Positions 827-19,930 are shown, counted from the stretch's first letter. The stretch: 64,000 nucleotides of DNA from Longimicrobium sp. (GCA_036389135.1 DASVQP010000048.1:58399-122398), one strand, 5' to 3'. Numbers and translations are program-made. The notes: generated by a model not told the origin, from the sequence alone.

Positions 827-3800
827 TGCGTGACTCCCCCGGGCGAGAGGGCGGGGCCCGCCGGGCCGGTGGGATCCACGGGCGGCGAAAGGAAGAGGGT
901 CACCGTCACCACGCTCGCCGGTGCCCAGGCGGCGCCGTTCCACTCCGGCAGGGTGAAGGTGAAGTCCAGGTCGTGCAGCGCCACGTTCAGCCCGGGGTGG
1001 CCCACGAACGCCATCGCCCGGTCCTTCGAGTGCACGGTGGTGAAGGAGACCGGCGGCGCGTTCCGCTGCGTGAGCACCAGGGTAGGGGCGGCGCCCGCGT
1101 CGGTGATGCGGGGGTCGATCAAAGGCTCGGGGCTGCGCACCAGGAAGCCGAGCACGCCCCCGCCTGCCGCGTCGCGGACGATCGTGAAGTCGGTGCCCAC
1201 CGGCGGGTCGAGGGCGGGAAGGCGCAGCACCCCCTGCGCCAGCCGGTCGAACGGATGCCCGTACTCCCGCTCCAGCGGGTCGCCCGAGGGCGGGGCGTGC
1301 GAGAGCAGCGCCACCAGTTGCGCGGTGCGACCTGCGTCCAGGGTCACGGCCACGTCGTCGTACACGGCGTCGCGCAGGTACGTCCCGTCGGCGTCGGCCA
1401 GGCGGTAGCTGTTCACCTGCTCCGGGTGGTCCGCGTAGCGCGACGTCCGGAAGTTTTCGCGGTGCACCTCCTGGACGGCGGCGCCGAAGCGCGCCGTGAA
1501 CACGGCCAGGTACAGCTTGCGAGGCTTGAGGCGTTCCACGCTCACCGTGGCCTGCACCCCCGGTGGCGCGATCCCGCCCTGGCCCACGCCGGTGCAGGGG
1601 TCGCCCTGCGTGGCCAGGTTGTTCAGCAGCTTCACGTCGGGCGGCGAGTGCCTCGCCAGCCCGGCGGTGAAGGCCAGGTAGACGGGGGGGACCTCGCCCG
1701 GGGCGCCGGGCGCGGGCCTCGGGTCCACCGGGTCCAGGATGGCCACCTCCAGGGTGCTTGAGACGGCGGGGTTCCCGTTGTACGCGTCGAACTGGCCGCC
1801 GAACATGGTGGCCACGTACGGGTGCAGCCACGCCAGCCGCAGCCGCGGCTCCACGTAGTAGAGCGGCTTGGCGTTCAGCACGTTGCCGTCGGCGCTGGGG
1901 TAGCTGTGCGCGAAGTCGATGTACGGCTTGAGCGACTGCAGCCGGAACTGGTCGGCGCGGTCGGCCGCGAGGAGCGCCTGGTATTCGGCGCGGTACGGAT
2001 GGAAGTGCCCCAGCGGCCCCCGCGTGCGGAAGCCCAGGTGCAGGTAGCGCCGGGCGGCGGTGGAGATGCCCTGCTCGTCGACGGTGACCCGGTCCACCAC
2101 CTGGAGGGTGACCGCATAAAGGGTGTCGAGCCGCCAGATGGGGTGGAGGGTGCGATTGATGGCCGTCACCATCGCCGTGTTGCTGGCCAGCAGGGCCCCG
2201 GCGCCGGGGATGGTGGCGTTGTACGCCGCGTCTTCCGCCGGCAGCCAGCAGAAGCCGAAAAAGAACGTGGCGCAGCCGTAGTCGAAGGATCGGTCCAGGT
2301 TGCAGGGTGGGTAGTCCTGGCGCGGCGGCCGCTGCCCTCCCAGCCCCTCCCCCACGGTGTCGCCGCGCAACGGGACGGCGCCCGGGCAGCAGCGCAGCAG
2401 CGCGGCCAGCGCCTCCATCTGCCCGCGCAGCTCGTCCGCCTCCGCGCGCAGCTCCTCCGCCAAGCCGTGGTGGTGGACGGCCAGCGCGGGGGAGCAGCAC
2501 TCCCCCTGCGCGCCATCGGCCAGCAGCTCGTGCTCGGCGGCCTGGGCCAACAACTGGGCCACCTCCGCTTCCAGCGCGGCGAGCTGTCCGCGCACCTCGG
2601 CGCAGACCATGGCGAAGTACGCCTCCAAGCTCCCGCACGGCGGCGGAGCCGGCGGTGCGGGGGGCGGCGGACCCCGGTCGGGCCAGGGGGGGCGACCCCC
2701 GGCCGGCGCGGTGGCGACCGCGGTGGGTCCGTCGCGGCAGTCGCATTCCCCTGCCTCGATCACCACCCGGTCGATCGGCGCACCGGGTGCGTCGTAGACC
2801 AGCGGCTGCTGCAGGCGCAGGGGGTCGGCCACCTCGCTGCGCATGGTGATGTCATCGTAGACAGGCTGGTGGCTGGGGTTCACCCCCGTCTGTCGCCGGC
2901 GGCGGTAGTGCACGGTCACCCCGTCGGAGAGGGTGGCCAGCTTCAGCCGCACCCGCGCCGCCGGCTCGGGAAAGACGATCTCCAGCCGCCACCCGGGGCG
3001 CAGCGCCACACCGCGGAGGTGCCCGAACGTGTTGGGGAAGGGGATCGCCCGGCCGTCGCCGCCGGTGAGCCGCACGTCCACGCCGTCGAAGGCGTAGCGC
3101 CGCCCCGACGCCATCGGGTCCGGCCAGGCGGGCCCGTCCACCGCCACGCAGCGCTCCGGGCGCGGGGGCTCGGGGCAGAAGAGCGTTTCGGTGGTGATCC
3201 CGGAGTTTTCGGGGATGAAGGGCCCGGCCGTGTCGTTGACGTAGCTCAGCGGCGTCTGCGACAGCAGCGAGAGCTTGTTCACCCGCCCCGGCTGGTCGGC
3301 CTGCCACCACCCCTCCCGCAGCCCGGCAAGGTCCGCCGGGTCCACGAAGGAAAGGTGGGCGAGCGGGGTGAGCGCGCCGTACACGTCGTAGTCGTCCCAG
3401 CGGCCGGCGGCGGGGTTCCAGGAGCGGATCCGCACCTCCTCCACCACGTACTCGTGCCGCACCTGCGGCGACTTCCCCCGCTGCGGCGGCACCAGGTCGG
3501 CGTTGGCGAAGCCGGTGCCGGTCACCCCGATATTGGTCACGGCGGGCCCCGGCGCCACCGGGCGTTTGAACTCCACGTCGATGGTGCTGTCCAGCGGCAC
3601 CACGAAGTCGTCGAAGCTCCCGCTCCACCCGGCCGTGGGCGGCGGCGGCAGCGCGGCGGCCATGGCGCCCGGCGCCACGTTCAGCGCGAAGCGCTCGCGC
3701 GTGGCCACGCACACCGCGCGGGCCGCCTCGCTGGGGGCGTCCTCGTTGAAGACCGGGAGGGCCGCCGTTTCGAGGTTGGAGTCGAAGGTCCAGGTGAAGT

Positions 3801-6792: not shown

Positions 6793-6914
6793 GATTTTTA
6801 TCTCAACGAACGACTAGGGTCCAGTAGGGTCCTTCTCTCCAACCGCATGACGGTCGCGATCGAAAGAGTCATACGAGATTGCACGGGCTGGTTCGGGATC
6901 GGTGGGTGAAAGAT

Positions 6915-6993
6915 CTCACGGAGAGTCAGCAGAGTCAGCAGAGTCAGCAGAAACTGCTTTGTTTTTTCTGATGACTCTGCTGACTCTGCGTGA
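6915..6993. repeat. word-repeat hairpin with arms built from tandem CAGAGTCAG units
   Basis: The left arm tcacggagagtcagcagagtcagcagagtcagcag pairs with the right arm ctgatgactctgctgactctgcgtga. It lies between the 784-aa and 1989-aa genes, so it is terminator-like on the minus strand. Confidence 0.8.
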
Positions 6994-7064
6994 TTCCTCT
7001 TTTCCCGTTGTTCCAGAACGATGCTCGGTGATCCAGTATCACGAGTAACTGACGCGAAGCGAGA

Positions 7065-9419
7065 TCATGCTTCAACGCCTTGATAAAGGATCGAGTGAAA
7101 TTTCTCTACATAACCAACCAGGAAGGCACTCCGCGCAGCCAGCTTCCTGTTCCTGGATTTGAAGGCATTTTTCAATTCGTACTGGTTGTGTGATGAGATC
7201 GCCCGGATAATACCAGGGTCATTGCGAGAAATACGGACATATGCACCGTTCTTCATCTTCGGCTTCAACAGCACGTTGTCCATCTCGTACTCGGTCACCA
7301 CCCACCGTCCGATACCACCGTAGGAAACAGTCGCAAACAGCAGCTTCTCAAGAATGTTGGGTGCTGCTCCCGTTGCGATGATGTTCGTGACCTTGTTTTT
7401 GATGAGGGTCTGTGTATAGTATTTTTTTGAAAAGATGAGCAGGTAATTCTGCACAATGGTCCGCTTGGCTACGGGCATCTGGAAAGCGTCGAAGGTAGCT
7501 TTGTTCCTGAGGTAGATCAGCATGCCTGGGCCTCTGTACAACCCGAAGATCTTCTTCAGGGCCGCTTTGAACAGCCCCGCGTTGAATCCTAGTTTGTGAG
7601 TGCCATCCAGCACGGAGTCCGGCGCAGTGAAATCGCCGCTGGCGTAAAAACCGTTTAACAAGGTTTCGAAGCTGGAGTAATTGACTGGATTGTCGGGTAA
7701 CTCACTGGCCGGTCGCACCAGGTAGCGCTGACTATCAGTCGCGGGCGTAATCAGGATCTTCGCCGGAGTTTCCGACGCGGGTTTGTGATAGAAGACTTCA
7801 TGCGAGTAAATGTTTCGGAAGCCGTTGACGGGATCCCCAATCCTCTGCTGAATGGTAACGCGCCACCCCGTGTAACCCGCGGCGGGACCGGTTGCGGAAC
7901 TGATGGCGATCAGACTTTCGTCTATTCCCATCAGATCTCGAAGCGATAGGCGAAGGCTGGCGTCGCCGGCCGCAAACGGAATGGCAACGGAGCGCGACTC
8001 GTAGTGCAACGTGAACGATCCCGTTGCACCAGCGAGTTTCTGGATCGTAAACTCGACCTTGTAGACGTTTGCCGTGGCGTAGTTGCCGCCGATGTCGTAA
8101 CCGTACCCCAGGGTCAGGCCGGACGCCCACCGCGTGGTGGCTTGCGAGCGTATGTTGGGGTTCTCCGCATAGAACTGCCCCGCCTGATAACGGACCAACA
8201 GGCCGGTCAGCACCCCTCCCGACGTGTAGAATGTGTCGGCCGTGAAATCCTCATCACCCGCGAAATCTTCTTCCAGGTAATGGTTGGTTGGTGTGCTGGC
8301 ACTCGTGACATAATATCGGTCAGTGGAATCACGATTGATGGTCCGGCCTGCAATGGCGGCGCTTCCCGGTTGCGGCGAACTCGCGGTAAAGACACCTGCC
8401 GTATCGTATGTGCCGAAGGTGATCCGACGTTTTGCATGCACGACTGTTTCAATCTCATCCGGGTAATGCGCACCCCGCACGAAGTTCTGTGGCTTGTTCT
8501 CCGTATAGACCGTGAGGAAATAGTACAGCGGAAGCGTCTTGATCGCATCGATGGTAGCCTGATCATCGATTGCTTCCTTGGGTACCCGCCCGGGAAAGAG
8601 ATCACCGAAGTCAATTTCGTAATAGGAATATGCACGTGCAGTGTCAGGGGTGTTGTAATCGAAGCTTACGACGTTTCCTCCGTCGTCTACGTGATCGTAC
8701 GTGCTCCCGGCGAGTGCCACCTGTTCACCAGCGCCGTTCAGCCGCTTCACGGCGTAAGCGGCGCGGATGTCATTGGCTCGCTTGCTCCACGTCGTTCCGC
8801 CCACGTCTAGTGGATCGCCAAAATTGGATATGAACGGGCTCCCAGCATAGTAGCTGTCGGAAGGAGTGTCGTAGAACAGGTCCTGACCCGCAATGTCGAA
8901 GTTCGCGACGGGGTTGGGGCGCGTGATGGTGCAGAGTTGAAACTGCGGACTTAGAACTTCACCCTTCGAGTTGACGACTTCGTGGAATGCCCCCAGCACG
9001 TAGGTACCGTCGGGGGTTTTCACGATCCTTCTGTTGCAGTAGAGGTCCAGTTCCGGATCGGTAAGTGGCGGTGAGATCTGGACTGCTTCCCCTTGGAAGG
9101 GGAGGCGGAACATGATCAGGAACGTGAGTTTGTCCAAGCTCTTGTTCGGCTGGCTGGTTCCGGTCTGCTCCAGATCCGGGTTCACTCCGTTGTCGCTCGA
9201 AGGATCCCACTCGGTCGTGATCGTAGCACCGACTTTCGTATAGAAGCCGGCGTATTCGGCAATTTTTCCACGCAGCGGAATCCCAGCAGCCTTGATGTCT
9301 TGGAGCAATTGCCACAGCGGAGCGTCGAAGCCCCCGGGCATCATAGAGGGGATCTCGACGACGCCCGTGTTGACTTCGGTAGACGAGGAGATCTGGGCCT
9401 GTGGATCAAGCGCCAGCAT
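7065..9419 (-). CDS. hypothetical protein (784 aa), visibly AT-richer than its surroundings
   Basis: Long ORF with protein-like composition rich in Y/N/K/F. Its start overlaps the stop of the upstream gene by 14 nt. No motif recognised. Confidence 0.85.
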   Translation of the reverse strand: MLALDPQAQISSSTEVNTGVVEIPSMMPGGFDAPLWQLLQDIKAAGIPLRGKIAEYAGFYTKVGATITTEWDPSSDNGVNPDLEQTGTSQPNKSLDKLTFLIMFRLPFQGEAVQISPPLTDPELDLYCNRRIVKTPDGTYVLGAFHEVVNSKGEVLSPQFQLCTITRPNPVANFDIAGQDLFYDTPSDSYYAGSPFISNFGDPLDVGGTTWSKRANDIRAAYAVKRLNGAGEQVALAGSTYDHVDDGGNVVSFDYNTPDTARAYSYYEIDFGDLFPGRVPKEAIDDQATIDAIKTLPLYYFLTVYTENKPQNFVRGAHYPDEIETVVHAKRRITFGTYDTAGVFTASSPQPGSAAIAGRTINRDSTDRYYVTSASTPTNHYLEEDFAGDEDFTADTFYTSGGVLTGLLVRYQAGQFYAENPNIRSQATTRWASGLTLGYGYDIGGNYATANVYKVEFTIQKLAGATGSFTLHYESRSVAIPFAAGDASLRLSLRDLMGIDESLIAISSATGPAAGYTGWRVTIQQRIGDPVNGFRNIYSHEVFYHKPASETPAKILITPATDSQRYLVRPASELPDNPVNYSSFETLLNGFYASGDFTAPDSVLDGTHKLGFNAGLFKAALKKIFGLYRGPGMLIYLRNKATFDAFQMPVAKRTIVQNYLLIFSKKYYTQTLIKNKVTNIIATGAAPNILEKLLFATVSYGGIGRWVVTEYEMDNVLLKPKMKNGAYVRISRNDPGIIRAISSHNQYELKNAFKSRNRKLAARSAFLVGYVEKFHSILYQGVEA

Positions 9420-11500
9420 GGCCGTACACCTTCAGGTTGGTGGTGCCGTTCAGAGGATCGGTATTCATTTCGTCGACCTTGTAATCGCCCGTCGCCGTAT
9501 CGGCCTTGAATCCCCGCAGAACGACTTCGAACGACGTATAGCGGACACCCTTGACGTCGGTCTGAGTCTGCAAGTGCTTCACGCCCAAGTAGATTCGAAA
9601 ACGATTGTCCAGAGTGGCCGCAGCACTGCTCTTCCAGATGTCATACGTGGTGTTTGAGAGGACAAGCATGAGGAGCTTGCCGAAATCAGGAATCGTGAAC
9701 CTCGCCCGAGCCTCGGCGTCGGCGTCCGAGGTGAACTCTGCCATGGGAACGGTTTCAGCAGCAGAAAGCACGAGGTCGCTCCTCCGTACCCGCTCGAGCG
9801 CATACTTGAGGACCACCAGGTTCGGGTAGCTTCCCGTGAATTCACTGGTCTCTCCGGAGAGCCTCACGAGCGCAGAGGTCTGTCCCGTCTGCTGCCGTAT
9901 GCACGTGGGCAGCACGAAGAGCGTTGTGTTGGCGGAGTCGCGTGCAATGCCGACGTTGCCGATGAAATCGCAGTCCAGCCCCGCCACTCCTCGCCCATCC
10001 ACGTAGACTTCCTCCTCGTACACCGCGGACTTGATGCTAGACGAGCCCGCAAAAAGGATGCGCAGGTCGAGCGGATAGAGCAGGTTGTCGAGGTAGTTCG
10101 CCGCCGGCAGGGCCGTGGAAACCATGGAGGCCGTGGCCGCGCTACCCGGCTCCTGCTTGAGGTACTTCAGCCGGATGTAGCACGAGACGGGCGTCGTGGC
10201 GGCTTGGCCCGTGACGTTGGGCACCACGAACGTCATCGATTTCGCGGAAGTGGTCCCGGTCTGGGTGAATCCGCCGAAAGCTCCCTTGAAGTCGTCGAAG
10301 AACCGTTCGGCACCGTTCAGCTCGGCCGGGAAGCCGTCGCCCTTGGCGCCCGTTTCGCGGTACCCCTGTGACACGTAGAGCAGCGGTTTGGGATTGTGGC
10401 CGACCGGGAGCTGGATCCGGAACGCGTTCCGCGCTTTAGTGACGTTGTTGCCCGGGAAATCCGCTGCCTTCAGGGTCAGGAGAGGCCACTTGCTCGCGTA
10501 ATAGTCGACCTGCGCCGGGGTAACAGTTCCAGGCTTGTAGCTGAGCTGGATGGTGTCGGTGTAGTTCCCGAAGTAGTTCAGCGAGTAGTTGTGCTCGTTG
10601 CGAATGTCCAGGTAGCCCTTGTTCCGGTTCATGAACGACGAAAGCACGTCGATGTACAGATCCTTTCCCCCTTTGGGCTCGAACGTCGACCCGGTGCTGC
10701 TCCTGGCGTGCACCCCCACGTCGAAGAACGATCCGTAGAAGGCGCAGGGGTCCATGAAGCCCAGCACCTGCTCTTTCGCGTGGCGGTGGTCGAACCTTTG
10801 TGCGGGCGTCGCCTGGGTGGGGAGCGCCGCCACGGAGATGACGCTCTCCAGCCTCCTCGCCAGGGAGATCTCGTGGCGGAAGCCGAGCCCCTCCAGCAAG
10901 ATCTCGATTCCAAAGCTTGCCCTGTCGAACTGGCCGATCCTCCACCCCCCCATCACCGGCTGCAGTTGGAACTTCACTCCCGCCTGGTAGAAGAAGTTGT
11001 CGATCGGCTGGTCGTCAGCGAACTCCGGGCTTGCCGCGGCCGTGAACCCCACGCCCAGCGCCTCGGCGGGGGGGGAGGTGTTGGTATTCGCGGTGGCGTT
11101 CTTCTCCGCCTGCGACTTCCAGATGCTCTGCGTGAGCTGGTTTGTCGACGCCTGGGCGACCTCGTTCCCGTTGATGAGTGACGAGCGGAGGATCCCCTTG
11201 TAGATGATGTACTTGATGGGGACGAAGTTCAGCGCCGGCTGCTCCCGCGGGCGGAGCACCAGGTTCACGAGCGCCGGGTTGTTGGGGTTCGAGATTTCCT
11301 GCACGCACACGACGCCGGCGCACACCGCGTAGGCGGTGGGGTCGAAGTTCTTGCTGGGATCGGCCGTGTGGAGGCTGGTGGTGCGGTAGAGGTCGGCCCC
11401 ATTGACTGTGCCAGCCGGCCCGAACGCCTGGCTGGGGAGCTGTGGGGCGAGGAGATCCGCGTTTGTGAAGAAATGGAACTTTGCGGCCATGGATCCGGCT
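9406..11500 (-). CDS. hypothetical protein (about 698 aa)
   Basis: The track ORF extends to 11802, but its first ~100 codons are R/S/P-rich junk. The ATG at 11498-11500 (MAAKFHFFTNADLL) has GGAG about 9 nt upstream. No motif recognised. Confidence 0.8.
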
Positions 11501-11904
11501 CCGCTGCATGCTGGGACCTGCGATGAACGACTGCCTGACCTGTGGATCGACTGCGCCTGAAGGAACTGCCAGGCTGAGATGCGCCGGGAAGGGCGGGGGT
11601 GGAGCGGCGCTGAGAGCGTGAAGCGCGCATTTGACGTGCCGCGCGCCGCCCTTCGCGTCGTGCCGGTGCAAGGCCCTGCGAGCGGCGGAGTTGGGTCGCG
11701 CCGCGCCGTGTGAGCGTCCGCCGGCAACGTGAGGCTGGCCCGTCCCAGGTGGGACGAAAATGGGGCGAGAAACGGGGCTACTGAGCGGCTTGTGCTCGTC
11801 ACGCACAGCTCTCAACGTACAGTAGTGATCGCGACCGCGCTGAAGATGAGGCAAAGCAGCCCCAAGTCCGTTCGATGCTCAATTTGGGGATGTAAGCCAG
11901 CGCC

Positions 11905-12018
11905 AGTAACAAAACGGAGTAACAAAAGCCAGTAACGCTGGGTGATCCTGGGCAACCCCGGGTTGCGCAAACCTCACAGAAATACTAGACTTTTGTTGCC
12001 TCCGTAACGCGGCGTAAC
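11905..12018 (+). repeat. short direct repeats AGTAAC x3 and CGTAAC x2 in the AT-rich region upstream of the giant-protein run
   Basis: AGTAAC occurs at 11905, 11918 and 11931. CGTAAC occurs at 12003 and 12013. A small hairpin GCAACCC/GGGTTGC lies at 11952-11966. Confidence 0.5.
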
Positions 12019-12040
12019 GGGCCGCCGCGGTTTCCTAATC

Positions 12041-12073
12041 TTGGGGCCGCGCGTTCGAGTCGCGCCGGGGGCA
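12041..12073 (+). other. tRNA 3'-end-like fragment (T-arm plus acceptor 3' strand), possible att remnant
   Basis: GCGCG-TTCGAGT-CGCGC at 12049-12065 has T-stem/T-loop form. It is followed by a 7-nt CGGGGGC and an A. No matching 5' acceptor strand, D-arm or anticodon arm lies upstream. Confidence 0.35.
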
Positions 12074-12094
12074 CTATCGACGAAACCCAACCGT

Positions 12095-12497
12095 GGATGC
12101 TGGGTTTCGTCGTTTGTTCGACACCAAGCGACGAACGGGCCCGGGAGCATCTTTGCTTCCGGGCCCGCTCGCCGTCTGTTCGGGATCTCAGCGCCCCACT
12201 GCGCTCAGGGGTCGACCCTGAACGGCATCGTGCGAGAGCGCGTGACGCCGTTCGTGCCGACGTAGGTGGCGGTGAGAGTCACGCTGCCGGGCGAGACGCC
12301 GGTGATCGTCGCGGACTCGCTGGTGGACGGCTCTCCGACCCTGACGATGCTGGTGTCCGAGCTCGTGAACACGATCGTATAGCTCCCGGGTACGCCGTTG
12401 CCGTTCGCGGTGTACCGGACCCTCGCGGAAGCGGTGCAGGTCGCTCCCACCTTCACGGCCTGGCACGTCAGGGCATTGAACGAGGGGATACACGTCC
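12095..12497. repeat. left copy of an approximately 400-bp direct repeat (partner at 17157-17567)
   Basis: By-eye alignment with 17157-17567 shows high but imperfect identity. It covers the last ~95 codons of a Big_2 gene plus its downstream stem-loops (GGGCCCGG...CCGGGCCC and TTCGTCG...CGACGAA). Confidence 0.85.
12205..12490 (-). pseudogene. 3' remnant of a Big_2-domain surface protein gene
   Basis: The C-terminal ~95 aa (SFNALTCQAVKVGATCTASARVRYTANGNG...RSRTMPFRVDP) parallel the C-terminus of the 17266-19713 protein. Upstream of 12490 the frame becomes R/P-rich junk with no signal peptide. Confidence 0.7.
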
Positions 12498-13109
12498 TTG
12501 ACGCCGCGGAGAGGCGGGCGGCGATCGCGGCGTTGCGTCTGGGAAGGGCGATGGAAGGCCTCCGCGGGGATCCCGCAAAAGTCTGCCGAAGCACAGGGAC
12601 TGTTGCAGTGAAGATAGCCGCAGGCGATCGGAACAACGACGGCGTTCCATTTCCGCCACGCGATTCTTCGGCACCACGAACAGTGCACCGGTGGCGTCTC
12701 CTGGCCGAGATTTGCTTCAAGCGCCCGCGCCGCCCCCGACCGACCGTCCCCGGGCGTTGCGCACGCGCCTCCGCGCATGGCGATCAGCTTCGCACGATCA
12801 CGCAAGTTTCGTCTTGCACCTGCAATCCCGGGCTCGTGGCCACCCGCCGGGCCACTGCGGCTAAAGCGAGCGTCCACAAGGTGTTTGCAAAGATGCTCGC
12901 TTTTTGTTCCGGCCTCGGGTACATTGGGGCACACACCAGCCGGCCCGCGCCCCTGCCCGTGCTCCCCCGTCCCGCACCGGTGCGCGCGCCCCTGCGCACA
13001 TCTCCATTAGACCGAAGCTGCGTTTCCGGCCGCGGAACGCGTCCCGGATCGCCCGGCGATCAGCGCGCGGGGCCGTTCTTTTTGGTTTCCACCGCCACAG
13101 GGCTCTCCG

Positions 13110-13277
13110 ATGCAGACACCCGATCCGCCATCTCCCGCGCCTTCCGCCGCACGGGCGCCGTACGTTCCGCCGCTTCTTGAAGATCTGGGAGGGTGGACCG
13201 CGCTCACGCTCCAGCAGAGCTTCGTGGTAGCCGACGAGCAGCCCTGGACCCAGTACCTGAAGAACGACCAGAAGTAG
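13110..13277 (+). CDS. small ORF (55 aa), candidate RiPP precursor with a lasso-type leader motif
   Basis: Translation is MQTPDPPSPAPSAARAPYVPPLLEDLGGWTALTLQQSFVVADEQPWTQYLKNDQK. Y18, P21, L23, G27 and T33 fit YxxPxLx3Gx5Tx. The C-terminal half is K/N/Q/W/Y-rich with G/C-ending codons. This is the first start after an in-frame stop at 13008-13010. It is below the ORF-track length cutoff. Confidence 0.5.
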   Translation: MQTPDPPSPAPSAARAPYVPPLLEDLGGWTALTLQQSFVVADEQPWTQYLKNDQK

Positions 13278-13322
13278 CCCCGCCGTCTCCACCGCGGCAG
13301 CTCCCTTGACGGAACGGCACCC

Positions 13323-15638
13323 ATGCGGTTCAAACATTGCTGCCCCCTTGCCCTGCTCGGCGCCGGACTCCTGGGCGCGTGCACCGACGACGTCACCGGC
13401 ACGGGCGGCGCAAACCCCGCTCCGGAGGCCCCGCGCGCGCTCGGCCTGGTGGAGATCCGCATCAGCGGCATCGGCACCGCCCAGATGAGCGCCGCGGTGT
13501 TTCCGCTGGAGCGCGCGCGGGGGGACCTCACCCCGGTGCCGGGCGGCAGCCCCGCGGGCACCGTCCAGGTGCGCCACGTGAGCGCCGCCACGGTGGACGT
13601 GGGTACGCGTGGGGCCGGGGGACAGCGCTACCTGCAGGCCGTCTTCCAAGTGCGCAACGCGGATGCGCAGGGCACCGCCTACGCCACGCAGCGGCGGAAC
13701 GTGGCCTTCGTTCCCGTGAGCACCGCGGGCACCATCCCCGGCACACCCGTGCGGCGGTTCCTCAGGCAGGACGGCGGCGCCGCGGACTCCGCGCTGGCGG
13801 CGCAGCTGCGGCCCACCGGGGCGGTTGCGCTGGACGCGGGGGGCGCGCCGGCCTCGCAGTACCCGGACGTTCTGCAGGCCTTCACCGAGGCCGAGGCGGA
13901 TGCGATCGGCATGCCGGAGGGGGTGACGAACCGCTTTCCCTACGGCTTCGTGGTGCGGCACGCCACGGCAACGGACACGCGGACGCTGGCGCCCACCCCG
14001 GCGGCGGACCAGTTCGACGGGCGCGTCACCTTTGCGTACCGCATCCCGCTGGCGGCCACGGCGGCGGACGACCCCTTCACCATCTCGGTGCTGGCGGTGG
14101 CGGTGGAGGACGGCGAGACGCGCGTGACGCAGGCGCCGGAGGAGCAGGCGGCGGCGGGGCGCAGCGCGTTCGAGGCGCGGGCCGCCGCGCTGGCCGCCAC
14201 GGGGGTCACGCTCTTCCCCGGCGGCGCGTACGCGGGAAGCGCGGCGAAGCGCATGCTCTGCGGGGTGCGCACCGCGGGCGAGAGCGGGAATCCGGCAGCC
14301 ACGCTCTCCCCCTGCCCGGCGATCGCATCGGTGGCGGTGAGCCCGACGGACGCGGTGCGGCTGGTGAACGTGGCGAGCGAGCTGGTGGGGCAGACGGTGC
14401 AGCTGACCGCGGCCGCCACGGACGCCAACGGCGGCCCCGCCGAGTGGGCGAGCATCGCGTGGAGCAGCTCGGACTCCGCGGTGGCGACGGTGAGCGGCAC
14501 GGGGCTGGTGACCATTACGGGCGCGGGCAGGGCCACGATCACCGCCGCCGCGGGCGGGAAGAGCGGAACGGCCACCCTTGCGGGTGAGCCGCTGAGGGCG
14601 GCGACCCTGACGACCGGGACGAGCCACGCCTGCGGACTGACCCCCTCGGGTGCGGCGTACTGCTGGGGGGCCAACTACCGGGGCCAGCTGGGCGACGGCA
14701 CCACCACGGACCGCGGCTCGCCGGTGGCGGTCGCAGGCGGGCATACCTTCACCAGCATCAGCGCGGGCTTCGCCTTCACGGTGGCGCTGACCTCCTCGGG
14801 AGTGGCCTACGCGTGGGGGGGCAACGACGAGGGCGCGCTGGGCGACGGCACCACCACGAACCGCGCCGAGCCGGTGGCGGTCTCCGGCGGGCTGACCTTC
14901 GCCAGCATCAGCGCGGGCGGCTTTCACGTGGTGGGGCTTACCTCCACGGGTGCGGCCTACGCCTGGGGGCGCAACCAGCAGGGCCAGCTCGGCGACGGCA
15001 CGGACACCCTGCGCACCGCGCCGGTGGCGGTCACCGGCGGGCTCAGCTTCGCGAGGGTTGAGGGGGGCTTCTTCCACACGGTTGCGCTGACCTCCACGGG
15101 TGCGGTATACCAGTGGGGGGGAAGCGGCATCGCTAGCGCCGCACCCATGGTGGTGCCCACGGGCGGGCGGCCGTTCGTGAGCGTCTCCACGAGCGCGTAC
15201 CATACGGTGGCGCTCGCCGCCTCGGGCAAGGCCTACGCGTGGGGGAGCAACTCCGTGGGCCAGCTGGGCGACGGCACCACCACGAACAGCGCCGCGCCGG
15301 TGGCGGTTTCCGGCGAGCTTACGTTCGCCAGCATCACGGCGGGCAGAGACTACACGTTGGCGCTGACCCGGGCGGGTGCGGCCTACGCCTGGGGAGGCAA
15401 CGTCCGCGGATCGCTGGGCGACGGCACGACCACGGACCGTACCGCGCCCGTGGCGGTCTCGGGCGGGCTGACGTTCACGAGCATCGGCGCGGGTGTGTTT
15501 TACACGTCGATCGGAGTGACCTCCGCGGGCGCGGCCTACGGGTGGGGAGACTATTCGGGCCAGTCGGGTGGCAGTCCCGGCACGATCTACCCCGCACCTG
15601 TGGCGATCTCCGGCGGGGTGGTCTTCAAGCAGCCGTGA
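13323..15638 (+). CDS. RCC1-repeat lipoprotein with a Big_2 domain
   Basis: Lipoprotein signal MRFKHCCPLALLGAGLLGAC. One Big_2-like segment (VSPTDAVRLV...TATL). At least seven repeats of the form YAWGxNxxGQLGDGTTTxRxxPVAV. Confidence 0.9.
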   Translation: MRFKHCCPLALLGAGLLGACTDDVTGTGGANPAPEAPRALGLVEIRISGIGTAQMSAAVFPLERARGDLTPVPGGSPAGTVQVRHVSAATVDVGTRGAGGQRYLQAVFQVRNADAQGTAYATQRRNVAFVPVSTAGTIPGTPVRRFLRQDGGAADSALAAQLRPTGAVALDAGGAPASQYPDVLQAFTEAEADAIGMPEGVTNRFPYGFVVRHATATDTRTLAPTPAADQFDGRVTFAYRIPLAATAADDPFTISVLAVAVEDGETRVTQAPEEQAAAGRSAFEARAAALAATGVTLFPGGAYAGSAAKRMLCGVRTAGESGNPAATLSPCPAIASVAVSPTDAVRLVNVASELVGQTVQLTAAATDANGGPAEWASIAWSSSDSAVATVSGTGLVTITGAGRATITAAAGGKSGTATLAGEPLRAATLTTGTSHACGLTPSGAAYCWGANYRGQLGDGTTTDRGSPVAVAGGHTFTSISAGFAFTVALTSSGVAYAWGGNDEGALGDGTTTNRAEPVAVSGGLTFASISAGGFHVVGLTSTGAAYAWGRNQQGQLGDGTDTLRTAPVAVTGGLSFARVEGGFFHTVALTSTGAVYQWGGSGIASAAPMVVPTGGRPFVSVSTSAYHTVALAASGKAYAWGSNSVGQLGDGTTTNSAAPVAVSGELTFASITAGRDYTLALTRAGAAYAWGGNVRGSLGDGTTTDRTAPVAVSGGLTFTSIGAGVFYTSIGVTSAGAAYGWGDYSGQSGGSPGTIYPAPVAISGGVVFKQP

Positions 15639-15662
15639 AGGGGAGGAGCGATGCTCCCCGCC

Positions 15663-16574
15663 TCACGGGCCCGCCAGCGGGAGCGGGGTGCCGCCCAGGA
15701 TGAGCCGCCGCGTCCACACGCGGCGGAGGAGGGCGGGGATCAGCCCCGCGACCGCCGCGCGCGAGGCGGCGGAGAGCGGGACGCCGATGCTCTCCCACAG
15801 CGCCCGCACCGCCTCCCGCTCCGGCAGCGCCTCCCACCGGGACGGCCGGTTCGCGTCGCGGGAGAGGAGCGCCACGCTCGCGAGCCGCGCCCCCCCGGGC
15901 CGCGCCCCGCCCAGCGCGTCCCAGGGGATGAACAGCTTCCCGTCCGCCCCCATCCGCCCGGGCAGGTCCGGGGCGAAGCGCCGCCGTGCGTCGGGCCACA
16001 GGTGCACCCCGCGGTCCCAGCCGTACACCTGGAGGGTGACGGGGTCCAGCCAGGCGAAATCCTCCGCGACCGGGTCCCACCCGCCGCGCACCGCCTGGAC
16101 GAGCGTGCTGCTCTTTCCGGTTCCGCTGCGGGCCAGGAGCGCGGTGGCCTCGCCGTTCCGGGCGATGACGGACGCGTGGAGCGGCACCAGCCCGCTCGCA
16201 CGTAGCGACTCGTACACGGCCATGAAAAGCGCTCCGCGAAGAAGCTCCCTCCTCGACTCCTCCTCCAGCCCGTACGGTTCGATCCGGCTTCCCGCGGTGC
16301 CGAGCGCCAGCCGGACGCCCGCGGCCTCGTCGCCGATCATCCAGTCATCCTCCCCCAGGGTCCGGCAGGGGAGCTCGATGCGGGGGATGCGTACCACGGG
16401 TCCGGGAGCCGGGAGCGGGGTGCGCGGCCGGGCACCTCGCGCCACGACGATGTCGAACCCCGCCTCGCCCGTCTCGTGCTCGTCGAACCGCCAGTGTGCG
16501 TGCAGCCACTGCTCCAGGCTGGGCGGGAGATTCGCCGTTTGCACGGTGCGGCCCATCACGGAGAACTCCGTCAT
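15663..16574 (-). CDS. HPr kinase-related (HprK-like) kinase
   Basis: LHASVIARNGEATALLARSGTGKSST matches the HPrK C-terminal domain P-loop pattern. Its start overlaps the upstream PqqD stop as ATGA. Confidence 0.75.
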   Translation of the reverse strand: MTEFSVMGRTVQTANLPPSLEQWLHAHWRFDEHETGEAGFDIVVARGARPRTPLPAPGPVVRIPRIELPCRTLGEDDWMIGDEAAGVRLALGTAGSRIEPYGLEEESRRELLRGALFMAVYESLRASGLVPLHASVIARNGEATALLARSGTGKSSTLVQAVRGGWDPVAEDFAWLDPVTLQVYGWDRGVHLWPDARRRFAPDLPGRMGADGKLFIPWDALGGARPGGARLASVALLSRDANRPSRWEALPEREAVRALWESIGVPLSAASRAAVAGLIPALLRRVWTRRLILGGTPLPLAGP

Positions 16575-16828
16575 GTGGAGACGCGGATCAGCTCCGCGGC
16601 GCGCAGCCGCTCAAAGAGGCCGCGCACGTCCCGCTCAGCCGTCGCGACGTCGACGTCGAGCACGGCAGCGAGCTCGCGTGCGGCGGCGGTCACCGATTCC
16701 GCGGGAAGCGCACTCCAGATGCGGCGGCCCGTGTCGTTGAGGCTGAACATCTCGCCCGTGCCCGGATCGAGCAGGATCAGCTCGCGATCCAGGTGCGTTT
16801 CGATGACGCGGGGATTCCTGGCGTACAT
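16571..16828 (-). CDS. PqqD-family protein (RiPP recognition element type)
   Basis: 85 aa: MYARNPRVIETHLDRELILLDPGTGEMFSLNDTGRRIWSAL, then a helical tail. This is the typical PqqD pattern. The frame stays open upstream to 17146, but that stretch is R-rich junk. An alternative start exists at 16933. Confidence 0.75.
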   Translation of the reverse strand: MYARNPRVIETHLDRELILLDPGTGEMFSLNDTGRRIWSALPAESVTAAARELAAVLDVDVATAERDVRGLFERLRAAELIRVST

Positions 16829-17040
16829 TCGGCTCGCGCGGAGAGGAGAGAGCACGCACCTGCAGGTTCCGGCCCCGTGGGCTGCGCGTCCGGCCGGCGG
16901 ACGGCGGCCGCCGCCGACTGAGCCACGTACCATGGGCGGACGAAAACGCACGAACACCACCCCTGCACATCCAGGACCGAGGAGCGGCCCTGGTACGCCC
17001 CGCGGTCTTCGGTTTCCCACCCGGCATCTTCTCGTTGTTT

Positions 17041-17070
17041 CTCTCCCGCGTCTCTGCGCCTCTGCGTGAG
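17041..17070. repeat. degenerate single arm of the CACAGAG-family element
   Basis: cccgcgtctctgcgcctctgcgtgag resembles the right arm of the elements at 40392, 54074 and elsewhere. No left arm was found. Confidence 0.5.
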
Positions 17071-17156
17071 CCCCACGGGTTTCCTGCAACCGGCATGCGA
17101 CCCCGAGCGGCACCCATGAGGTCCATCCGGCTCTACCCCTCGCCACGGGGCTACCG

Positions 17157-17567
17157 CGGATGCTGGGTCTTGTTTGTTCGATACCAAGCGACGAACGGGT
17201 CCGGGAGCATCTTCGCTTCCGGGCCCGCTCGCTGCCTGGTACGGGGTCTCAGCGCCCTGCTGCGCTCAGGGGTCGACCCTGAACTGCATCGTGCGGGAGC
17301 GGGTGACGCCGTTCGCGCCGACGTAGGTGGCGGTGAGCGTCACGGTGCCGGGCGAGACGCCGGTGATTGTCGCGGTTTGGCTGGTGGATTGGCTGGTGGA
17401 CGGCTGCGCGACCCTGGCGATACCGGGGTCGGAGCTCGTGAACACGATCGTCCGAGCCCCCGGGAAACCGTTGCCGTTCGCGGTGTAACGGATCCGCGCG
17501 GAAGCGGTGCAGGTCGCTCCCACCTTTACGGCCTGGCACGTCAGGGCATCGAACGAGGGGTACACGT
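17157..17567. repeat. right copy of the approximately 400-bp direct repeat (partner at 12095-12497)
   Basis: Same evidence as the left copy. Here it is the genuine 3' end and terminator region of the full-length Big_2 gene. Confidence 0.85.
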
Positions 17568-19713
17568 CAACCACGGAACCCGTCTGGGTGCCGGACACGC
17601 CCTCGCTGGTCGCGGTGACGGTGACGCTTCCGGCGCTGACGCCGCCCATCAGCCCGGAGGGCGAGACGGTCGCGACCGCGTCGTTCGAGCCGGAGTAGGT
17701 GACGGTGCGGTCCGGGAGCTCGCGCCCCACGGAGTCCACGGCCGTGGCGCGGGCACGGACGGTGTCACCCACGATGAACGGGTCCGGGAACGGGGCGAAG
17801 CGAATCGAGGTGACCTGGGCGCGCAGGACCGTCACCGTCGTGGAGCCGCTCTTCCCCTCGCTCGTCGCGGTGATGGTGGCGGTGCCGGCGGACACGCCGC
17901 TCACGAGCGCGGTGCCGTTGCTGAGCCCGGAGGTGCTCACGGTGGCGACCGCCTCGTTGGAGCTGCTCCAGGTGACCGGCCTCCCGGTGACCACCGCACC
18001 GCTGGCATCGCGCGTGGTCGCGGTGAACTGACGCCACGCGTTCTCACGCAACTGCAGGTTCTGCGGCGTCACTTCCACGGACGCCACCGGGCCGGGAACG
18101 ACGTTGATCGTCGCGGTCGCCGTCTTCCCTTCAGCGGTGGCGGTGATGGTCGCCGTACCGGCGGACACTCCCGTCACCACCCGGTTGCCATCGATGGTCG
18201 CCACCGCCGCGTTGGAGGTGACGAGCGTGGCGGTGCGCCCGCCCAGCTCGTTCCCCGCCGCGTCGCGCGCGATCAGGGTGAGCTGGGTGGTGAGGCCCAC
18301 GCGCACCTCCGCCGGGTTCGGCGAGAGCGTGAGCGTGGCGATCGGCACCGGGATGACCGTGACCTGCGCCATCGCGGACTTCCCCTCGACCGTGGCGGTG
18401 ATCGCCACCGGCCCACCGGGGTTCGATCCGGTCACCAGGCCCGTCGCGCTCACCGAGGCCACCGCGGGGTCCGCGCTGGTCCAGGTGATGGGACGTCCGC
18501 CCACCGCCGCCCCGCTCGCATCACGCGCGATCGCGGTGAGCTGCACCGACGCGCCCGACTGGATCGTCGCGTTCTGCGGAGTGACCTCGACCGACGTCAC
18601 CGGGCCGGGAACGACGTTGACGGTCGCGGTCGCCGTCTTCCCTTCCGCGGTGGCGGTGATGGTCGCGGTGCCCGCGGACATCCCGGTCACCATCCGGTTC
18701 GCGTCGATGGCCGCCACCGCCGCATTGGAGGTGACGAGCGTGACGGTGCGCCCGCCCAGCTCGTTGCCCGCGGCGTCACGCGCGATCAGCGTGAGCTGGG
18801 TGGTGAGCCCCACCCGCACCTCCGCCGGATTCGGCGAGAGCGTCAGCGTGGCGATGGGCACCGGGATCACCGTGACCTGCGCCATCGCGGACTTTCCCTC
18901 GACCGTGGCGGTGATCGCCACCGGCCCGCCGGGATTCGAACCGGTCACCATACCGGTCGGGCTCACCGAGGCCACCGCGGGGTTCGCGCTGGTCCAGGTG
19001 ATGGGACGCCCGCCGACCGCCGCCCCGCTCGCATCGCGCGCGACGGCGGTGAGCTGCACCGACGCGCCCGACTGGATCGTCGCGTTCTGCGGAGTGACCT
19101 CGACCGACGTCACCGGGCCGGGAACGACGTTGATGGTGGCGGTCGTCGTCTTCCCTTCAGCCGTCGCGGTGATGGTCGCGGTGCCCGCGGACACTCCCGT
19201 CACCACGCGGTTGCCATCGATGGCCGCCACCGCCGCGTTGGAGGTGACGAGCGTGGCAGGGCGCCCGCCCAGCTCGTTGCCCGCGGCATCGCGCGCGATC
19301 AGCGTGAGCTGCGTAGTGAGCCCCACCCCTACCTGGACCGGATTCGGCGAGAGCGTCAGCGTGGCGACCGGCACCGGGGCAATCGTCAGCGCCACCCGCC
19401 CCACCTTTTCCTCCGCGGACGCGGTGATGGTGGCCGAGCCCGGCGTCAGTGCGGTGACGACGCCACTGGCGCTCACCGTTGCGACCGCCTTGTTGTCGCT
19501 GTTCCACGTAATCGCGCGGCCGGGCAGTACGTTGCCGGAAGGATCCTTGAGCACGATGGAGAGCTGCATCGTCTGCCCAGCGACGATGCTCGCCGCGGGT
19601 GACGTGACTTCGACGGATTCGACGGAGGCGGGCCCCGCGGGATCGTCGCTGCACGCGGTGAGCAGAAGGGCCAGGAACCCGAGGGCGGTGGTACGGCGCA
19701 GGGAGGCGACCAT
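17266..19713 (-). CDS. multi-Big_2 (bacterial Ig-like group 2) surface lipoprotein
   Basis: Lipoprotein signal MVASLRRTTALGFLALLLTAC, with the start at 19713 preferred over 19761. Eight or more Big_2-like modules (QLTxxARDAxGNxL...ATITAT). Confidence 0.9.
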   Translation of the reverse strand: MVASLRRTTALGFLALLLTACSDDPAGPASVESVEVTSPAASIVAGQTMQLSIVLKDPSGNVLPGRAITWNSDNKAVATVSASGVVTALTPGSATITASAEEKVGRVALTIAPVPVATLTLSPNPVQVGVGLTTQLTLIARDAAGNELGGRPATLVTSNAAVAAIDGNRVVTGVSAGTATITATAEGKTTTATINVVPGPVTSVEVTPQNATIQSGASVQLTAVARDASGAAVGGRPITWTSANPAVASVSPTGMVTGSNPGGPVAITATVEGKSAMAQVTVIPVPIATLTLSPNPAEVRVGLTTQLTLIARDAAGNELGGRTVTLVTSNAAVAAIDANRMVTGMSAGTATITATAEGKTATATVNVVPGPVTSVEVTPQNATIQSGASVQLTAIARDASGAAVGGRPITWTSADPAVASVSATGLVTGSNPGGPVAITATVEGKSAMAQVTVIPVPIATLTLSPNPAEVRVGLTTQLTLIARDAAGNELGGRTATLVTSNAAVATIDGNRVVTGVSAGTATITATAEGKTATATINVVPGPVASVEVTPQNLQLRENAWRQFTATTRDASGAVVTGRPVTWSSSNEAVATVSTSGLSNGTALVSGVSAGTATITATSEGKSGSTTVTVLRAQVTSIRFAPFPDPFIVGDTVRARATAVDSVGRELPDRTVTYSGSNDAVATVSPSGLMGGVSAGSVTVTATSEGVSGTQTGSVVDVYPSFDALTCQAVKVGATCTASARIRYTANGNGFPGARTIVFTSSDPGIARVAQPSTSQSTSQTATITGVSPGTVTLTATYVGANGVTRSRTMQFRVDP
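18061..19377 (-). repeat. intragenic tandem repeat, about 2.6 copies of a 513-bp (171-aa) unit
   Basis: Units begin at protein residues 133, 304 and 475 (ATLTLSPNP...). Copies are nearly identical at the amino-acid level. Confidence 0.85.
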
Positions 19714-19930
19714 GGTATTTTCACCGAGGAGGGGCGGCGATACGAAGCGTCGCATTCGCAAAGACGGTAGACCGTCCCTGCGGAGTGTGTCGGCTTCTGC
19801 CGGTAGCCAGCAGGCTTCTATCGAAGGCGAGCGGCGAACGCCTCAAAATGGCAAGGTCGTTCTACTTATCGTACACTCGTGTGCCCCAGTTGTGCCGCGT
19901 CCCGCCAGGTGTCCCGCGTTACCCTGGCGG

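What the first reader, a model, noticed from the sequence alone, without database searches (positions are those of the whole stretch)
15663..16828. Translationally coupled PqqD-family and HprK-like kinase pair without the usual RiPP maturation partners
The 85-aa PqqD-type protein (16571-16828) and the 303-aa HPr-kinase-like protein with P-loop SGTGKSS (15663-16574) share an ATGA junction. HPr-kinase homologues paired with PqqD-type recognition elements are known from lasso-peptide clusters, where they phosphorylate the precursor. Here the pair stands alone, convergent with an RCC1/Big_2 lipoprotein gene. The upstream 320 bp (16829-17150) contains no convincing precursor ORF, only a degenerate repeat arm. 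The substrate and product of this pair are therefore unknown.
Basis: partly seen in the sequence, partly recalled or inferred. Interest (0 to 1): 0.65.

Follow-up and report, generated by a model that had tools for sequence, protein, structure and literature searches.

The report
Lasso-type recognition-kinase pair with its precursor
The PqqD/kinase gene pair is real but not orphaned: it is the recognition-plus-kinase module of an apparently undescribed, mostly Gemmatimonadota peptide pathway that uses lasso-peptide machinery without a ring-forming enzyme, and its likely substrate is a 55-codon gene 2.4 kb away.

Summary
An 85-aa PqqD protein (16571-16828, minus) and a 303-aa HPr-kinase-like P-loop protein (15663-16574, minus) overlap by ATGA. 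They lie convergent to an RCC1/Big_2 lipoprotein gene in a Longimicrobium genome.

The reading "the pair stands alone, substrate unknown" does not hold. The 55-aa ORF at 13110-13277 carries the exact lasso leader motif: YVPPLLEDLGGWTALTL|QQS.... It belongs to a family of at least 252 peptides. Across the best 120, Y-17, P-14, G-8, W-6, T-2 and L-1 are invariant, and core residue 3 is always Ser or Thr.

In relatives, five genes recur together:
- the peptide;
- a lipoprotein with a conserved ~300-aa N-terminal domain, which is the N-terminus of the "RCC1 lipoprotein" here;
- an NTP_transf_5-Transglut_core3 fusion (lasso N-B2);
- PqqD;
- the kinase.

No cyclase or exporter appears in any locus. 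50 of 120 cores have no Asp or Glu, and 29 are only 8 residues long, so a lasso ring is excluded for the family.

This strain and two 98%-identical assemblies have lost the N-B2 gene from the locus.

Most likely mechanism: PqqD binds the leader and the kinase phosphorylates core Ser3, as shown for BsfB1 and BsfK. This is a new variant of a known kind.

The parts
16571..16828 (-). PqqD-family RiPP recognition element (lasso B1-like), 85 aa
   Evidence: Pfam PqqD E 4e-17. NCBIfam lasso_PqqD_Strm E 1e-13, 51 bits, below its cutoff of 70. 100% identical in L005 and L006. Always directly upstream of the kinase gene in relatives.
15663..16574 (-). HPr-kinase/PEPCK-fold P-loop kinase (lasso K-like, Pfam PF27840 'ScmC' type), 303 aa, ATGA-coupled to the PqqD gene
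   Evidence: Motif H133...S150-G151-x-G153-K154-S155...E171-D172 has the same spacing as the BsfK motif H148...G166-G168-K169-S170...D186-D187 (PMC10368454).
13110..13277 (+). Precursor peptide, 55 aa: leader with YxxPxLxxxGxxxxxTx, predicted cleavage TL|QQ, 21-aa core QQSFVVADEQPWTQYLKNDQK
   Evidence: (profile E 1.6e-17; at least 252 family members). Identical peptide in L005 and L006, with 2 synonymous changes.
13323..14340 (+). Conserved ~300-aa N-terminal lipoprotein domain of unknown fold (lipobox Cys20), the conserved partner of the peptide gene
   Evidence: 26 invariant columns in 10 sequences. AF2 pLDDT 80; no PDB match, best E 0.018; 631 representative proteins, with the domain at or near the N-terminus in nearly all listed.
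14341..15638 (+). Variable C-terminal part of the same lipoprotein: Big_2 domain plus RCC1 beta-propeller
   Evidence: Relatives carry FG-GAP propellers, other sequence or nothing in this position.
15639..15662 (.). 24-bp gap between the convergent stop codons, where relatives carry the NTP_transf_5-Transglut_core3 (N-B2) gene
   Evidence: L007 (kinase 69% identical) has a 474-aa N-B2 gene here. tblastn finds none anywhere in the window. L005 and L006 have the same 24-bp gap.
12112..12487 (.). Left copy of a ~380-bp direct repeat (86-93% identical) flanking the cassette
   Evidence: families D5-D7.
17172..17560 (.). Right copy of the direct repeat: 3' end of the Big_2 gene and the sequence after it
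   Evidence: The segment 17049-19848 is absent from L005 and L006.

Best explanation
The pair is the recognition-plus-kinase module (B1 + K) of a lasso-derived but cyclase-less peptide pathway found mostly in Gemmatimonadota.

Proposed mechanism (inferred, not shown):
- The PqqD protein binds the YxxPxL leader of the 55-aa precursor encoded at 13110-13277.
- It presents the precursor to the translationally coupled kinase, which phosphorylates the invariant Ser/Thr at core position 3 (Ser3 of QQSFVV...).
- In relatives, an NTP_transf_5-Transglut_core3 fusion then removes the leader after the invariant Thr(-2)-Leu(-1). It possibly decorates the phosphate as well.
- The product would be a short linear phosphopeptide with N-terminal Gln or Glu, which can form pyroglutamate.
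- The peptide gene is tied to a lipoprotein with a conserved N-terminal domain. The role of that lipoprotein (partner, receptor or immunity) is unknown.

In this strain the N-B2 gene has been lost from the locus, so leader removal needs a gene elsewhere or does not occur.

Shown here: gene identities, conservation, synteny and motif statistics. Inferred: binding, the site of phosphorylation, the cleavage site and the nature of the product.
For: 1. Family assignments.
- PqqD: Pfam and closest to lasso chaperones.
- Kinase: fold and catalytic motif.

2. The 55-aa ORF has the exact lasso leader spacing.
- It belongs to a family of at least 252 peptides.
- In the best 120: Y-17, P-14, G-8, W-6, T-2 and L-1 are 120/120; Q2 is 119/120; S/T3 is 120/120. 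In 59/120 that Ser/Thr is the only hydroxyl residue in the core.

3. Synteny.
- PqqD->kinase lies next to N-B2 in 10 of 13 informative non-redundant loci.
- The peptide gene lies directly upstream of the N-domain lipoprotein gene in the window, L002, L007, L011, L019, L021 and L026, and directly downstream of it in L003 and L025.
- In L021 the order peptide->Ndom->Ndom->PqqD->kinase is on one strand.

4. Experimental precedent.
- BsfK phosphorylates Ser3 of the BsfA core with strict regioselectivity, and BsfB1 accelerates the reaction. The conserved kinase motif has the same spacing as here (PMC10368454).
- N proteins modify the phosphate, and N is sometimes fused to B2 (PMC6993621, PMC8498205).

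5. No sign of decay.
- All 12 invariant kinase residues are kept.
- The six differences from the 98% relative fall in variable columns.
- PqqD and the peptide are identical in three assemblies.
Against: - There is no biochemical evidence for any member.
- The N-B2 gene is absent from this locus and from the whole 64-kb window. No close orthologue (>58% identity) of L007's N-B2 exists in the protein collection.
- The window's core is atypical at positions 4-6: F/V/V, against V/I-P-I in most members.
- Kinase pN/pS against the 98% relative is about 1.1, but this rests on only 8 changes.
- The peptide and the pair are on opposite strands, 2.4 kb apart.
- No exporter was seen in any locus.
- The whole genome could not be searched because the tool was shut.
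Confidence: 0.68

Rival explanations
1. It is a genuine lasso-peptide pathway whose cyclase (and B2) are encoded elsewhere in the genome. The window's core, with Asp8 and Glu9, would be cyclised into a phosphorylated lasso.
For: - The leader motif is exactly lasso-type, and this particular core has D8/E9.
- Pathway genes can be dispersed: L024 has N-B2 alone, and L025 spreads the genes over 14 kb.
- PGAP names the fusion 'lasso peptide biosynthesis B2 protein'.
Against: - No Asn_synthase-type cyclase appears in any gene listing of the related loci, including two complete chromosomes at +/-8 kb.
- None was found among the 14 window ORFs scanned against Pfam, 12 of them 398 aa or longer.
- 50/120 family cores have no acidic residue, only 15/120 have D/E at positions 7-9, and 29 cores are 8 aa long.
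- Core position 1 is Gln, Glu, Ala or His and never Gly, Ser or Cys, which (by my own recall) are the usual first residues of lasso cores.
Confidence: 0.08
2. The pair is a decaying remnant. After loss of the N-B2 gene the cassette no longer makes a product, and the genes are drifting.
For: - N-B2 is lost from the locus.
- The core is atypical at positions 4-6.
- The kinase shows 6 non-synonymous against 2 synonymous changes relative to the 98% relative.
- The cassette sits in a rearranging region flanked by ~380-bp repeats, and its flanks differ from L005.
Against: - All four ORFs are intact in three independent assemblies.
- All invariant and nearly invariant kinase residues are retained, and the changes lie in variable columns.
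- PqqD is identical, and the peptide differs only by synonymous changes.
- L011 also lacks an adjacent N-B2 but keeps intact genes, and a stand-alone Transglut_core3 gene lies 8 kb away.
Confidence: 0.17
3. The kinase-like protein has a different activity or substrate, and the link to the peptide is coincidental. It could, for example, be a ScmC-like or HprK-related protein acting on another molecule or on the lipoprotein.
For: - The sequence models that hit are ScmC (E 2e-8) and HprK_rel_A (E 4e-6), both families of untested function.
- The top structural matches are PEP carboxykinases.
Against: - Both NCBIfam hits are far below their cutoffs: 34 against 125 bits, and 26 against 200 bits.
- No radical-SAM ScmE/F genes are nearby.
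- The kinase gene is always preceded by a PqqD gene, and the cluster holds a lasso-type leader peptide and B2.
- The motif spacing equals that of lasso precursor kinases.
Confidence: 0.07

Closest known systems
Phosphorylated lasso-peptide clusters with B1, B2, K and N genes: bsf of Bradymonas sediminis (PMC10368454), psm/pseudomycoidin of Bacillus pseudomycoides (PMC6993621), pade/paeninodin (reviewed in PMC8498205)
   Same: - Precursor with YxxPxL at -17 to -12 and Thr at -2.
- A discrete PqqD-type RRE.
- An HPr-kinase-like kinase with the same H...GxGKS...(D/E)D motif spacing.
- A hydroxyl residue at core position 3, the BsfK target.
- A nucleotidyltransferase that can be fused to B2.
   Different: - No lasso cyclase (C) and no ABC exporter (D) in any locus.
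- Cores start with Gln-Gln rather than Gly/Ala/Ser.
- Cores often have no acidic residue and can be only 8 aa long.
- A lipoprotein with a conserved N-terminal domain is the constant neighbour of the peptide gene.
- In this window the N-B2 gene is also absent.
SynChlorMet cassette ScmC/ScmD (TIGR04249/TIGR04248; Pfam PF27840 ScmC)
   Same: A PqqD-like protein is paired with an HprK-like P-loop protein. Precomputed Pfam labels on the homologues give PF27840 (weak).
   Different: Scores are far below the equivalog cutoffs: 33.9 against 125 bits for ScmC, and 18.6 against 100 bits for ScmD. There are no radical SAM/SPASM ScmE/F genes. The phylum and the peptide differ.
HPr-rel-A system (TIGR04352 HprK-related kinase A with TIGR04353 PqqD_rel_X)
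   Same: A PqqD-family chaperone is paired with an HprK-related kinase.
   Different: The kinase scores 26 bits against a cutoff of 200, and the PqqD protein 23.7 against 35. No second kinase (kinase B; membership by my own recall of that system) was seen in the gene listings.
Bona fide HPr kinase/phosphorylase (HprK/P)
   Same: P-loop catalytic fold (Foldseek E 5e-5, target TM-score 0.46, to L. casei HprK/P).
   Different: There is no Pfam Hpr_kinase_N/C hit. The N-terminal half is unrelated. Nothing like ptsH was called in the annotated relatives' loci, and the partner is a PqqD-type RRE.

Membership tests
Lasso peptide biosynthetic gene cluster | Precursor with a leader carrying YxxPxL and a penultimate Thr | tested here: met
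   Window 13110-13277: YVPPLLEDLGGWTALTL|QQS. Invariant across 120 family members.
Lasso peptide biosynthetic gene cluster | PqqD-type RRE (B1) | tested here: met
   Pfam PqqD E 4e-17. The lasso_PqqD_Strm model is the best NCBIfam hit but scores below its cutoff, 51 against 70 bits.
Lasso peptide biosynthetic gene cluster | Transglutaminase-fold leader peptidase (B2) | tested here: not met
   Absent from the 64-kb window (tblastn). Present as an N-B2 fusion next to the pair in 10 of 13 informative related loci. The rest of this genome could not be searched.
Lasso peptide biosynthetic gene cluster | Asn-synthetase-like lasso cyclase (C) | tested here: not met
   No Asn_synthase in the gene listings of any related locus, nor among the window ORFs scanned.
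Lasso peptide biosynthetic gene cluster | Core with Asp/Glu at position 7-9 for the macrolactam | tested here: not met
   The window's core has D8/E9. In the family only 15/120 have D/E at 7-9, and 50/120 have no acidic residue at all.
Lasso precursor kinases (PadeK/ThcoK/PsmK/BsfK type) | Conserved H...G-x-x-G-x-G-K-S...D-D catalytic motif | tested here: met
   H133, G151, G153, K154, S155, E171 and D172 have the same spacing as in BsfK. The first Gly is Ala148 here and the first Asp is Glu. No direct sequence comparison with a characterised kinase was possible.
Lasso precursor kinases (PadeK/ThcoK/PsmK/BsfK type) | Phosphorylates Ser/Thr of the precursor peptide | not testable with these tools
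   Needs an in vitro or in vivo assay. The invariant S/T3 of the family is the predicted site.
HPr kinase/phosphorylase | Matches Hpr_kinase_C/N models, with HPr (ptsH) as substrate | tested here: not met
   No Pfam family at E<=0.01. The profile match to PDB HprK covers only 44 residues around the P-loop, E 1e-5.
SynChlorMet cassette (ScmC/ScmD) | Scores above the TIGR04249/TIGR04248 cutoffs, with ScmE/F radical SAM neighbours | tested here: not met
   33.9 bits against 125, and 18.6 against 100. No radical SAM genes in any locus listing.
PQQ biosynthesis PqqD | Matches TIGR03859 and lies in a pqqA-E operon | tested here: not met
   16 bits against a cutoff of 46. No pqq genes in the neighbourhood.

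The most novel reading that the evidence does not exclude
The pair belongs to an undescribed RiPP class that evolved from lasso machinery by dropping the cyclase. The class would make very short linear peptides, for example pGlu-Gln-pSer-Val-Pro-Ile-Phe-Pro, possibly further decorated on the phosphate by the N domain. These peptides would work together with a dedicated lipoprotein family (631 representative clusters) that has a conserved N-terminal domain with no solved-structure match, for instance as a ligand-receptor or toxin-immunity pair at the cell envelope of Gemmatimonadota.
Probability: 0.35. Interest if true: 0.8.

Novelty: new variant of a known kind. Interest (0 to 1): 0.62.

Why it matters
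- It turns an "orphan" recognition-kinase pair into a testable enzyme-substrate prediction: the 55-aa peptide, with Ser3 as the phosphorylation site.
- It exposes a sizeable family (at least 252 peptides, at least 143 N-B2 fusions, at least 71 kinases, 631 lipoprotein clusters) in which lasso leader recognition, cleavage and phosphorylation are used without lasso formation.
- A genome-mining rule that requires a lasso cyclase would miss these loci, while PGAP labels the fusion "lasso B2". Recognising the family would correct annotation.
- It could reveal a new class of small phosphopeptides and a new lipoprotein domain in abundant soil and biocrust bacteria.
- This strain's natural loss of N-B2 offers a comparison for asking what each step contributes.

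Tried and rejected
The question of a trans-acting B2 or cyclase stays open.
- Homologue search with L007's N-B2, looking for an orthologue from this species: nothing above 58% identity. L024 shows that N-B2 can sit alone elsewhere in another Longimicrobium. P0129 was not on record.
- Fold search of the lipoprotein N-domain against the PDB: no meaningful match, best E 0.018 and TM below 0.22.
- Promoter/terminator scan and folding of the 24-bp convergent gap: nothing above shuffled controls.
- Literature: no paper holds both PF14907 and 'lasso peptide', or the term 'HprK-related kinase'. No description of a cyclase-less Gemmatimonadota family was found. A marine Gemmatimonadota survey only counts lasso BGCs.
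- Sequencing runs: only soil and biocrust DNA metagenomes hold the stretch, so there is no transcription evidence.
- Rejected: genuine HprK/P, PQQ PqqD, ScmC/ScmD and HPr-rel-A membership, all below model cutoffs and without the defining neighbours.

Full report
**Observation.**
- The window is high-GC DNA (about 70%) from a Longimicrobium (Gemmatimonadota). The kinase-like protein is 98% identical to a protein of a Longimicrobium sp. MAG (GCA_036387335.1).
- The 85-aa ORF 16571-16828 (-) and the 303-aa ORF 15663-16574 (-) overlap in ATGA.
- The first ORF is a full-length Pfam PqqD domain (E 4e-17). Its best NCBIfam model is the lasso chaperone NF033530 (E 1e-13, below cutoff), while the PQQ PqqD model scores only 16 bits against 46.
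- The second ORF has no hit in the local Pfam copy. Its homologues carry the precomputed label PF27840 "ScmC" (weak). NCBIfam ScmC and HprK_rel_A hit only about 60 residues around the P-loop, far below their cutoffs.
- A 21-sequence alignment shows 12 invariant residues, including H133, G151, G153, K154 and D172.
- An AF2 model (pLDDT 93, pTM 0.90) matches PEP carboxykinases (E 5e-7) and the HprK/P catalytic domain (E 5e-5).

**The pair is not alone.**
- Homologues of the kinase sit in a recurrent neighbourhood.
- PqqD->kinase is convergent with a 430-480-aa NTP_transf_5 + Transglut_core3 fusion, which PGAP names "lasso peptide biosynthesis B2 protein".
- That fusion is preceded on its own strand by a large secreted protein and a small ORF.
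- The closest informative relative is L007, with the kinase 69% and PqqD 74% identical. Its order is: 55-aa ORF -> RCC1/Big_2 protein -> N-B2, convergent with kinase <- PqqD.
- The window, L005 and L006 have the same order but no N-B2 gene. Only 24 bp separate the kinase and RCC1 stop codons.
- tblastn finds no N-B2 anywhere in the 64 kb.
- Because the outgroups have the gene, the simplest reading is a loss in this lineage that predates the split of the three assemblies.

**The precursor.**
- The 55-aa ORF at 13110-13277 (+) reads MQTPDPPSPAPSAARAP-YVPPLLEDLGGWTALTL-QQSFVVADEQPWTQYLKNDQK.
- It has the lasso leader spacing YxxPxLxxxGxxxxxTx. YxxPxL spans -17 to -12 with Thr at -2, as described in PMC10368454.
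- Equivalent ORFs occur in L002, L003, L007, L011, L019, L020, L021, L025 and L026.
- A profile of eight such peptides finds 252 proteins at E<=0.01 in the 5.8-billion-protein collection. The window's own peptide scores E 1.6e-17.
- In the best 120:
  - Y-17, P-14, G-8, W-6, T-2 and L-1 are 120/120.
  - Core Q1 is 105/120, with E in 12.
  - Q2 is 119/120 and S/T3 is 120/120.
  - V/I at position 4 is 115/120, P5 is 93/120 and I/V at position 6 is 114/120.
  - Core lengths run from 8 to 48 residues, and 29 cores have just 8 (QQS[IV]PIFP).
  - 50 cores have no Asp or Glu, and only 15 have one at positions 7-9.
  - In 59 cores, S/T3 is the only hydroxyl residue.
- This ascertainment is through a profile built on the motif, so the leader conservation is partly circular. 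The core statistics are not.

**No cyclase.**
- None of the gene listings of the related loci contains an Asn_synthase-type protein or an ABC exporter. These include two complete chromosomes at +/-8 kb.
- The window ORFs scanned against Pfam contain none either.
- Together with the core statistics, this excludes lasso macrolactam formation as the family's chemistry.
- A distant cyclase acting on the minority of cores with D/E at 7-9, which includes the window's core, cannot be formally excluded.

**The lipoprotein.**
- At the DNA level, the first ~1 kb of the RCC1 gene is conserved in the FG-GAP and other large proteins of the related loci.
- Ten N-terminal regions align with 26 invariant columns, including the lipobox Cys20.
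- The C-terminal parts vary: RCC1/Big_2, FG-GAP, unknown sequence or nothing, as in the 323-aa protein of L011.
- The AF2 model is confident (pLDDT 80, pTM 0.80) and mostly beta, but has no PDB match.
- An exhaustive HMM search finds 631 representative proteins (282 at E<=1e-30). The domain is at or near the N-terminus in nearly all listed.
- The peptide gene lies directly upstream of this gene in the window, L002, L007, L011, L019, L021 and L026, and directly downstream in L003 and L025.
- In L026 the peptide-lipoprotein pair occurs with no maturation gene within 10 kb.
- In L021 the order peptide->Ndom->Ndom->PqqD->kinase is co-directional.
Its role is unknown.

**Mechanism.**
- Published work on the bsf lasso cluster shows three relevant things (PMC10368454):
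  - The HPr-kinase-like BsfK phosphorylates Ser3 of the core with strict regioselectivity.
  - The RRE BsfB1 accelerates that reaction and also assists B2.
  - These kinases share H148...G163-G166-G168-K169-S170...D186-D187.
- The window's protein has H133...A148-G151-G153-K154-S155...E171-D172 with identical spacing.
- PsmN-type nucleotidyltransferases add hexoses to the phosphate, and N is sometimes fused to B2 (PMC6993621, PMC8498205).
- I therefore infer the following steps:
  - PqqD binds the leader.
  - The coupled kinase phosphorylates Ser3.
  - Where N-B2 is present, it cleaves TL|QQ and may decorate the phosphate.
  - The N-terminal Gln or Glu (117/120) could form pyroglutamate.
- None of these steps is shown here.

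**State of the system in this strain.**
- All four genes are intact in three assemblies.
- PqqD is identical, and the peptide has 0 non-synonymous and 2 synonymous changes.
- The lipoprotein gene has pN/pS of about 0.4.
- The kinase has 6 non-synonymous against 2 synonymous changes. All six fall in variable alignment columns.
- The window's core is atypical at positions 4-6 (F-V-V).
- Whether a B2 acts in trans is open. L011 has a stand-alone Transglut_core3 gene 8 kb away, and L024 has N-B2 alone.

**Context.**
- The cassette is flanked by ~380-bp direct repeats at 12112-12487 and 17172-17560, 86-93% identical. They derive from the 3' end of Big_2 genes and the sequence after them.
- Relative to L005 and L006, the window carries an extra 2.8 kb (17049-19848) holding the 831-aa Big_2 gene, and it differs to the left of 12679.
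- The stretch occurs in soil and biocrust metagenomes. No RNA data were found.

**Verdict.**
- Observation: confirmed.
- First reading: half right. It correctly identified a lasso-type B1+K pair, but wrongly called it orphaned with an unknown substrate.
- The pair is a member of an apparently undescribed cyclase-less derivative of phosphorylated-lasso machinery, which is a new variant of a known kind.
I arrived at it from my own calls before seeing that note, and I do not count it as support.

Noticed in passing
window 12112-12487 and 17172-17560: Direct repeats of about 380 bp, 86-93% identical, bracket the peptide/lipoprotein/kinase/PqqD cassette. The right copy is the 3' end of the 831-aa Big_2 gene plus a GC-rich hairpin. 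The left copy is the 3' end of a 248-aa ORF (12188-12934, -) with no Pfam hit.
   Followed up: partly
window 17049-19848: A 2.8-kb segment with the 831-aa Big_2/Big_1/Invasin_D3 repeat protein gene (17266-19761, -) is absent from the 98.6%-identical assemblies L005 and L006. The gene contains three 513-bp internal tandem copies, 87-89% identical.
   Followed up: partly
window 823-11802: Three very large co-directional ORFs on the minus strand (1989, 784 and 798 aa) have no Pfam family at the thresholds used. The two smaller ones lie in DNA of lower G+C (57-64%) than the surroundings.
   Followed up: no
L001/L015 (OY969570.1), locus coordinates 8001-8930 of L001: The kinase homologue in this long-read chromosome aligns in two frames (residues 1-251 and 213-300). 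Its called product has an unrelated Ser/Pro-rich tail, which suggests a frameshift or an assembly error. No precursor ORF was found near its two FG-GAP N-domain genes.
   Followed up: partly
L025 (GCA_036381495.1), 3987-18158: A dispersed version of the cluster. It holds N-B2, two N-domain proteins, the peptide (core QQSVPIGPGNF) and a longer 450-aa kinase homologue with PqqD. An ECF sigma factor and a Ser/Thr protein kinase-TPR gene lie between them.
   Followed up: no
L023 (Actinomycetes MAG JANPKU010000090.1): The only non-Gemmatimonadota genome hit of the kinase family. It has a PqqD-like gene, a partial kinase match (residues 116-303) and a Transglut_core3-like match 2 kb away. This could be horizontal transfer or mis-binning.
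   Followed up: no
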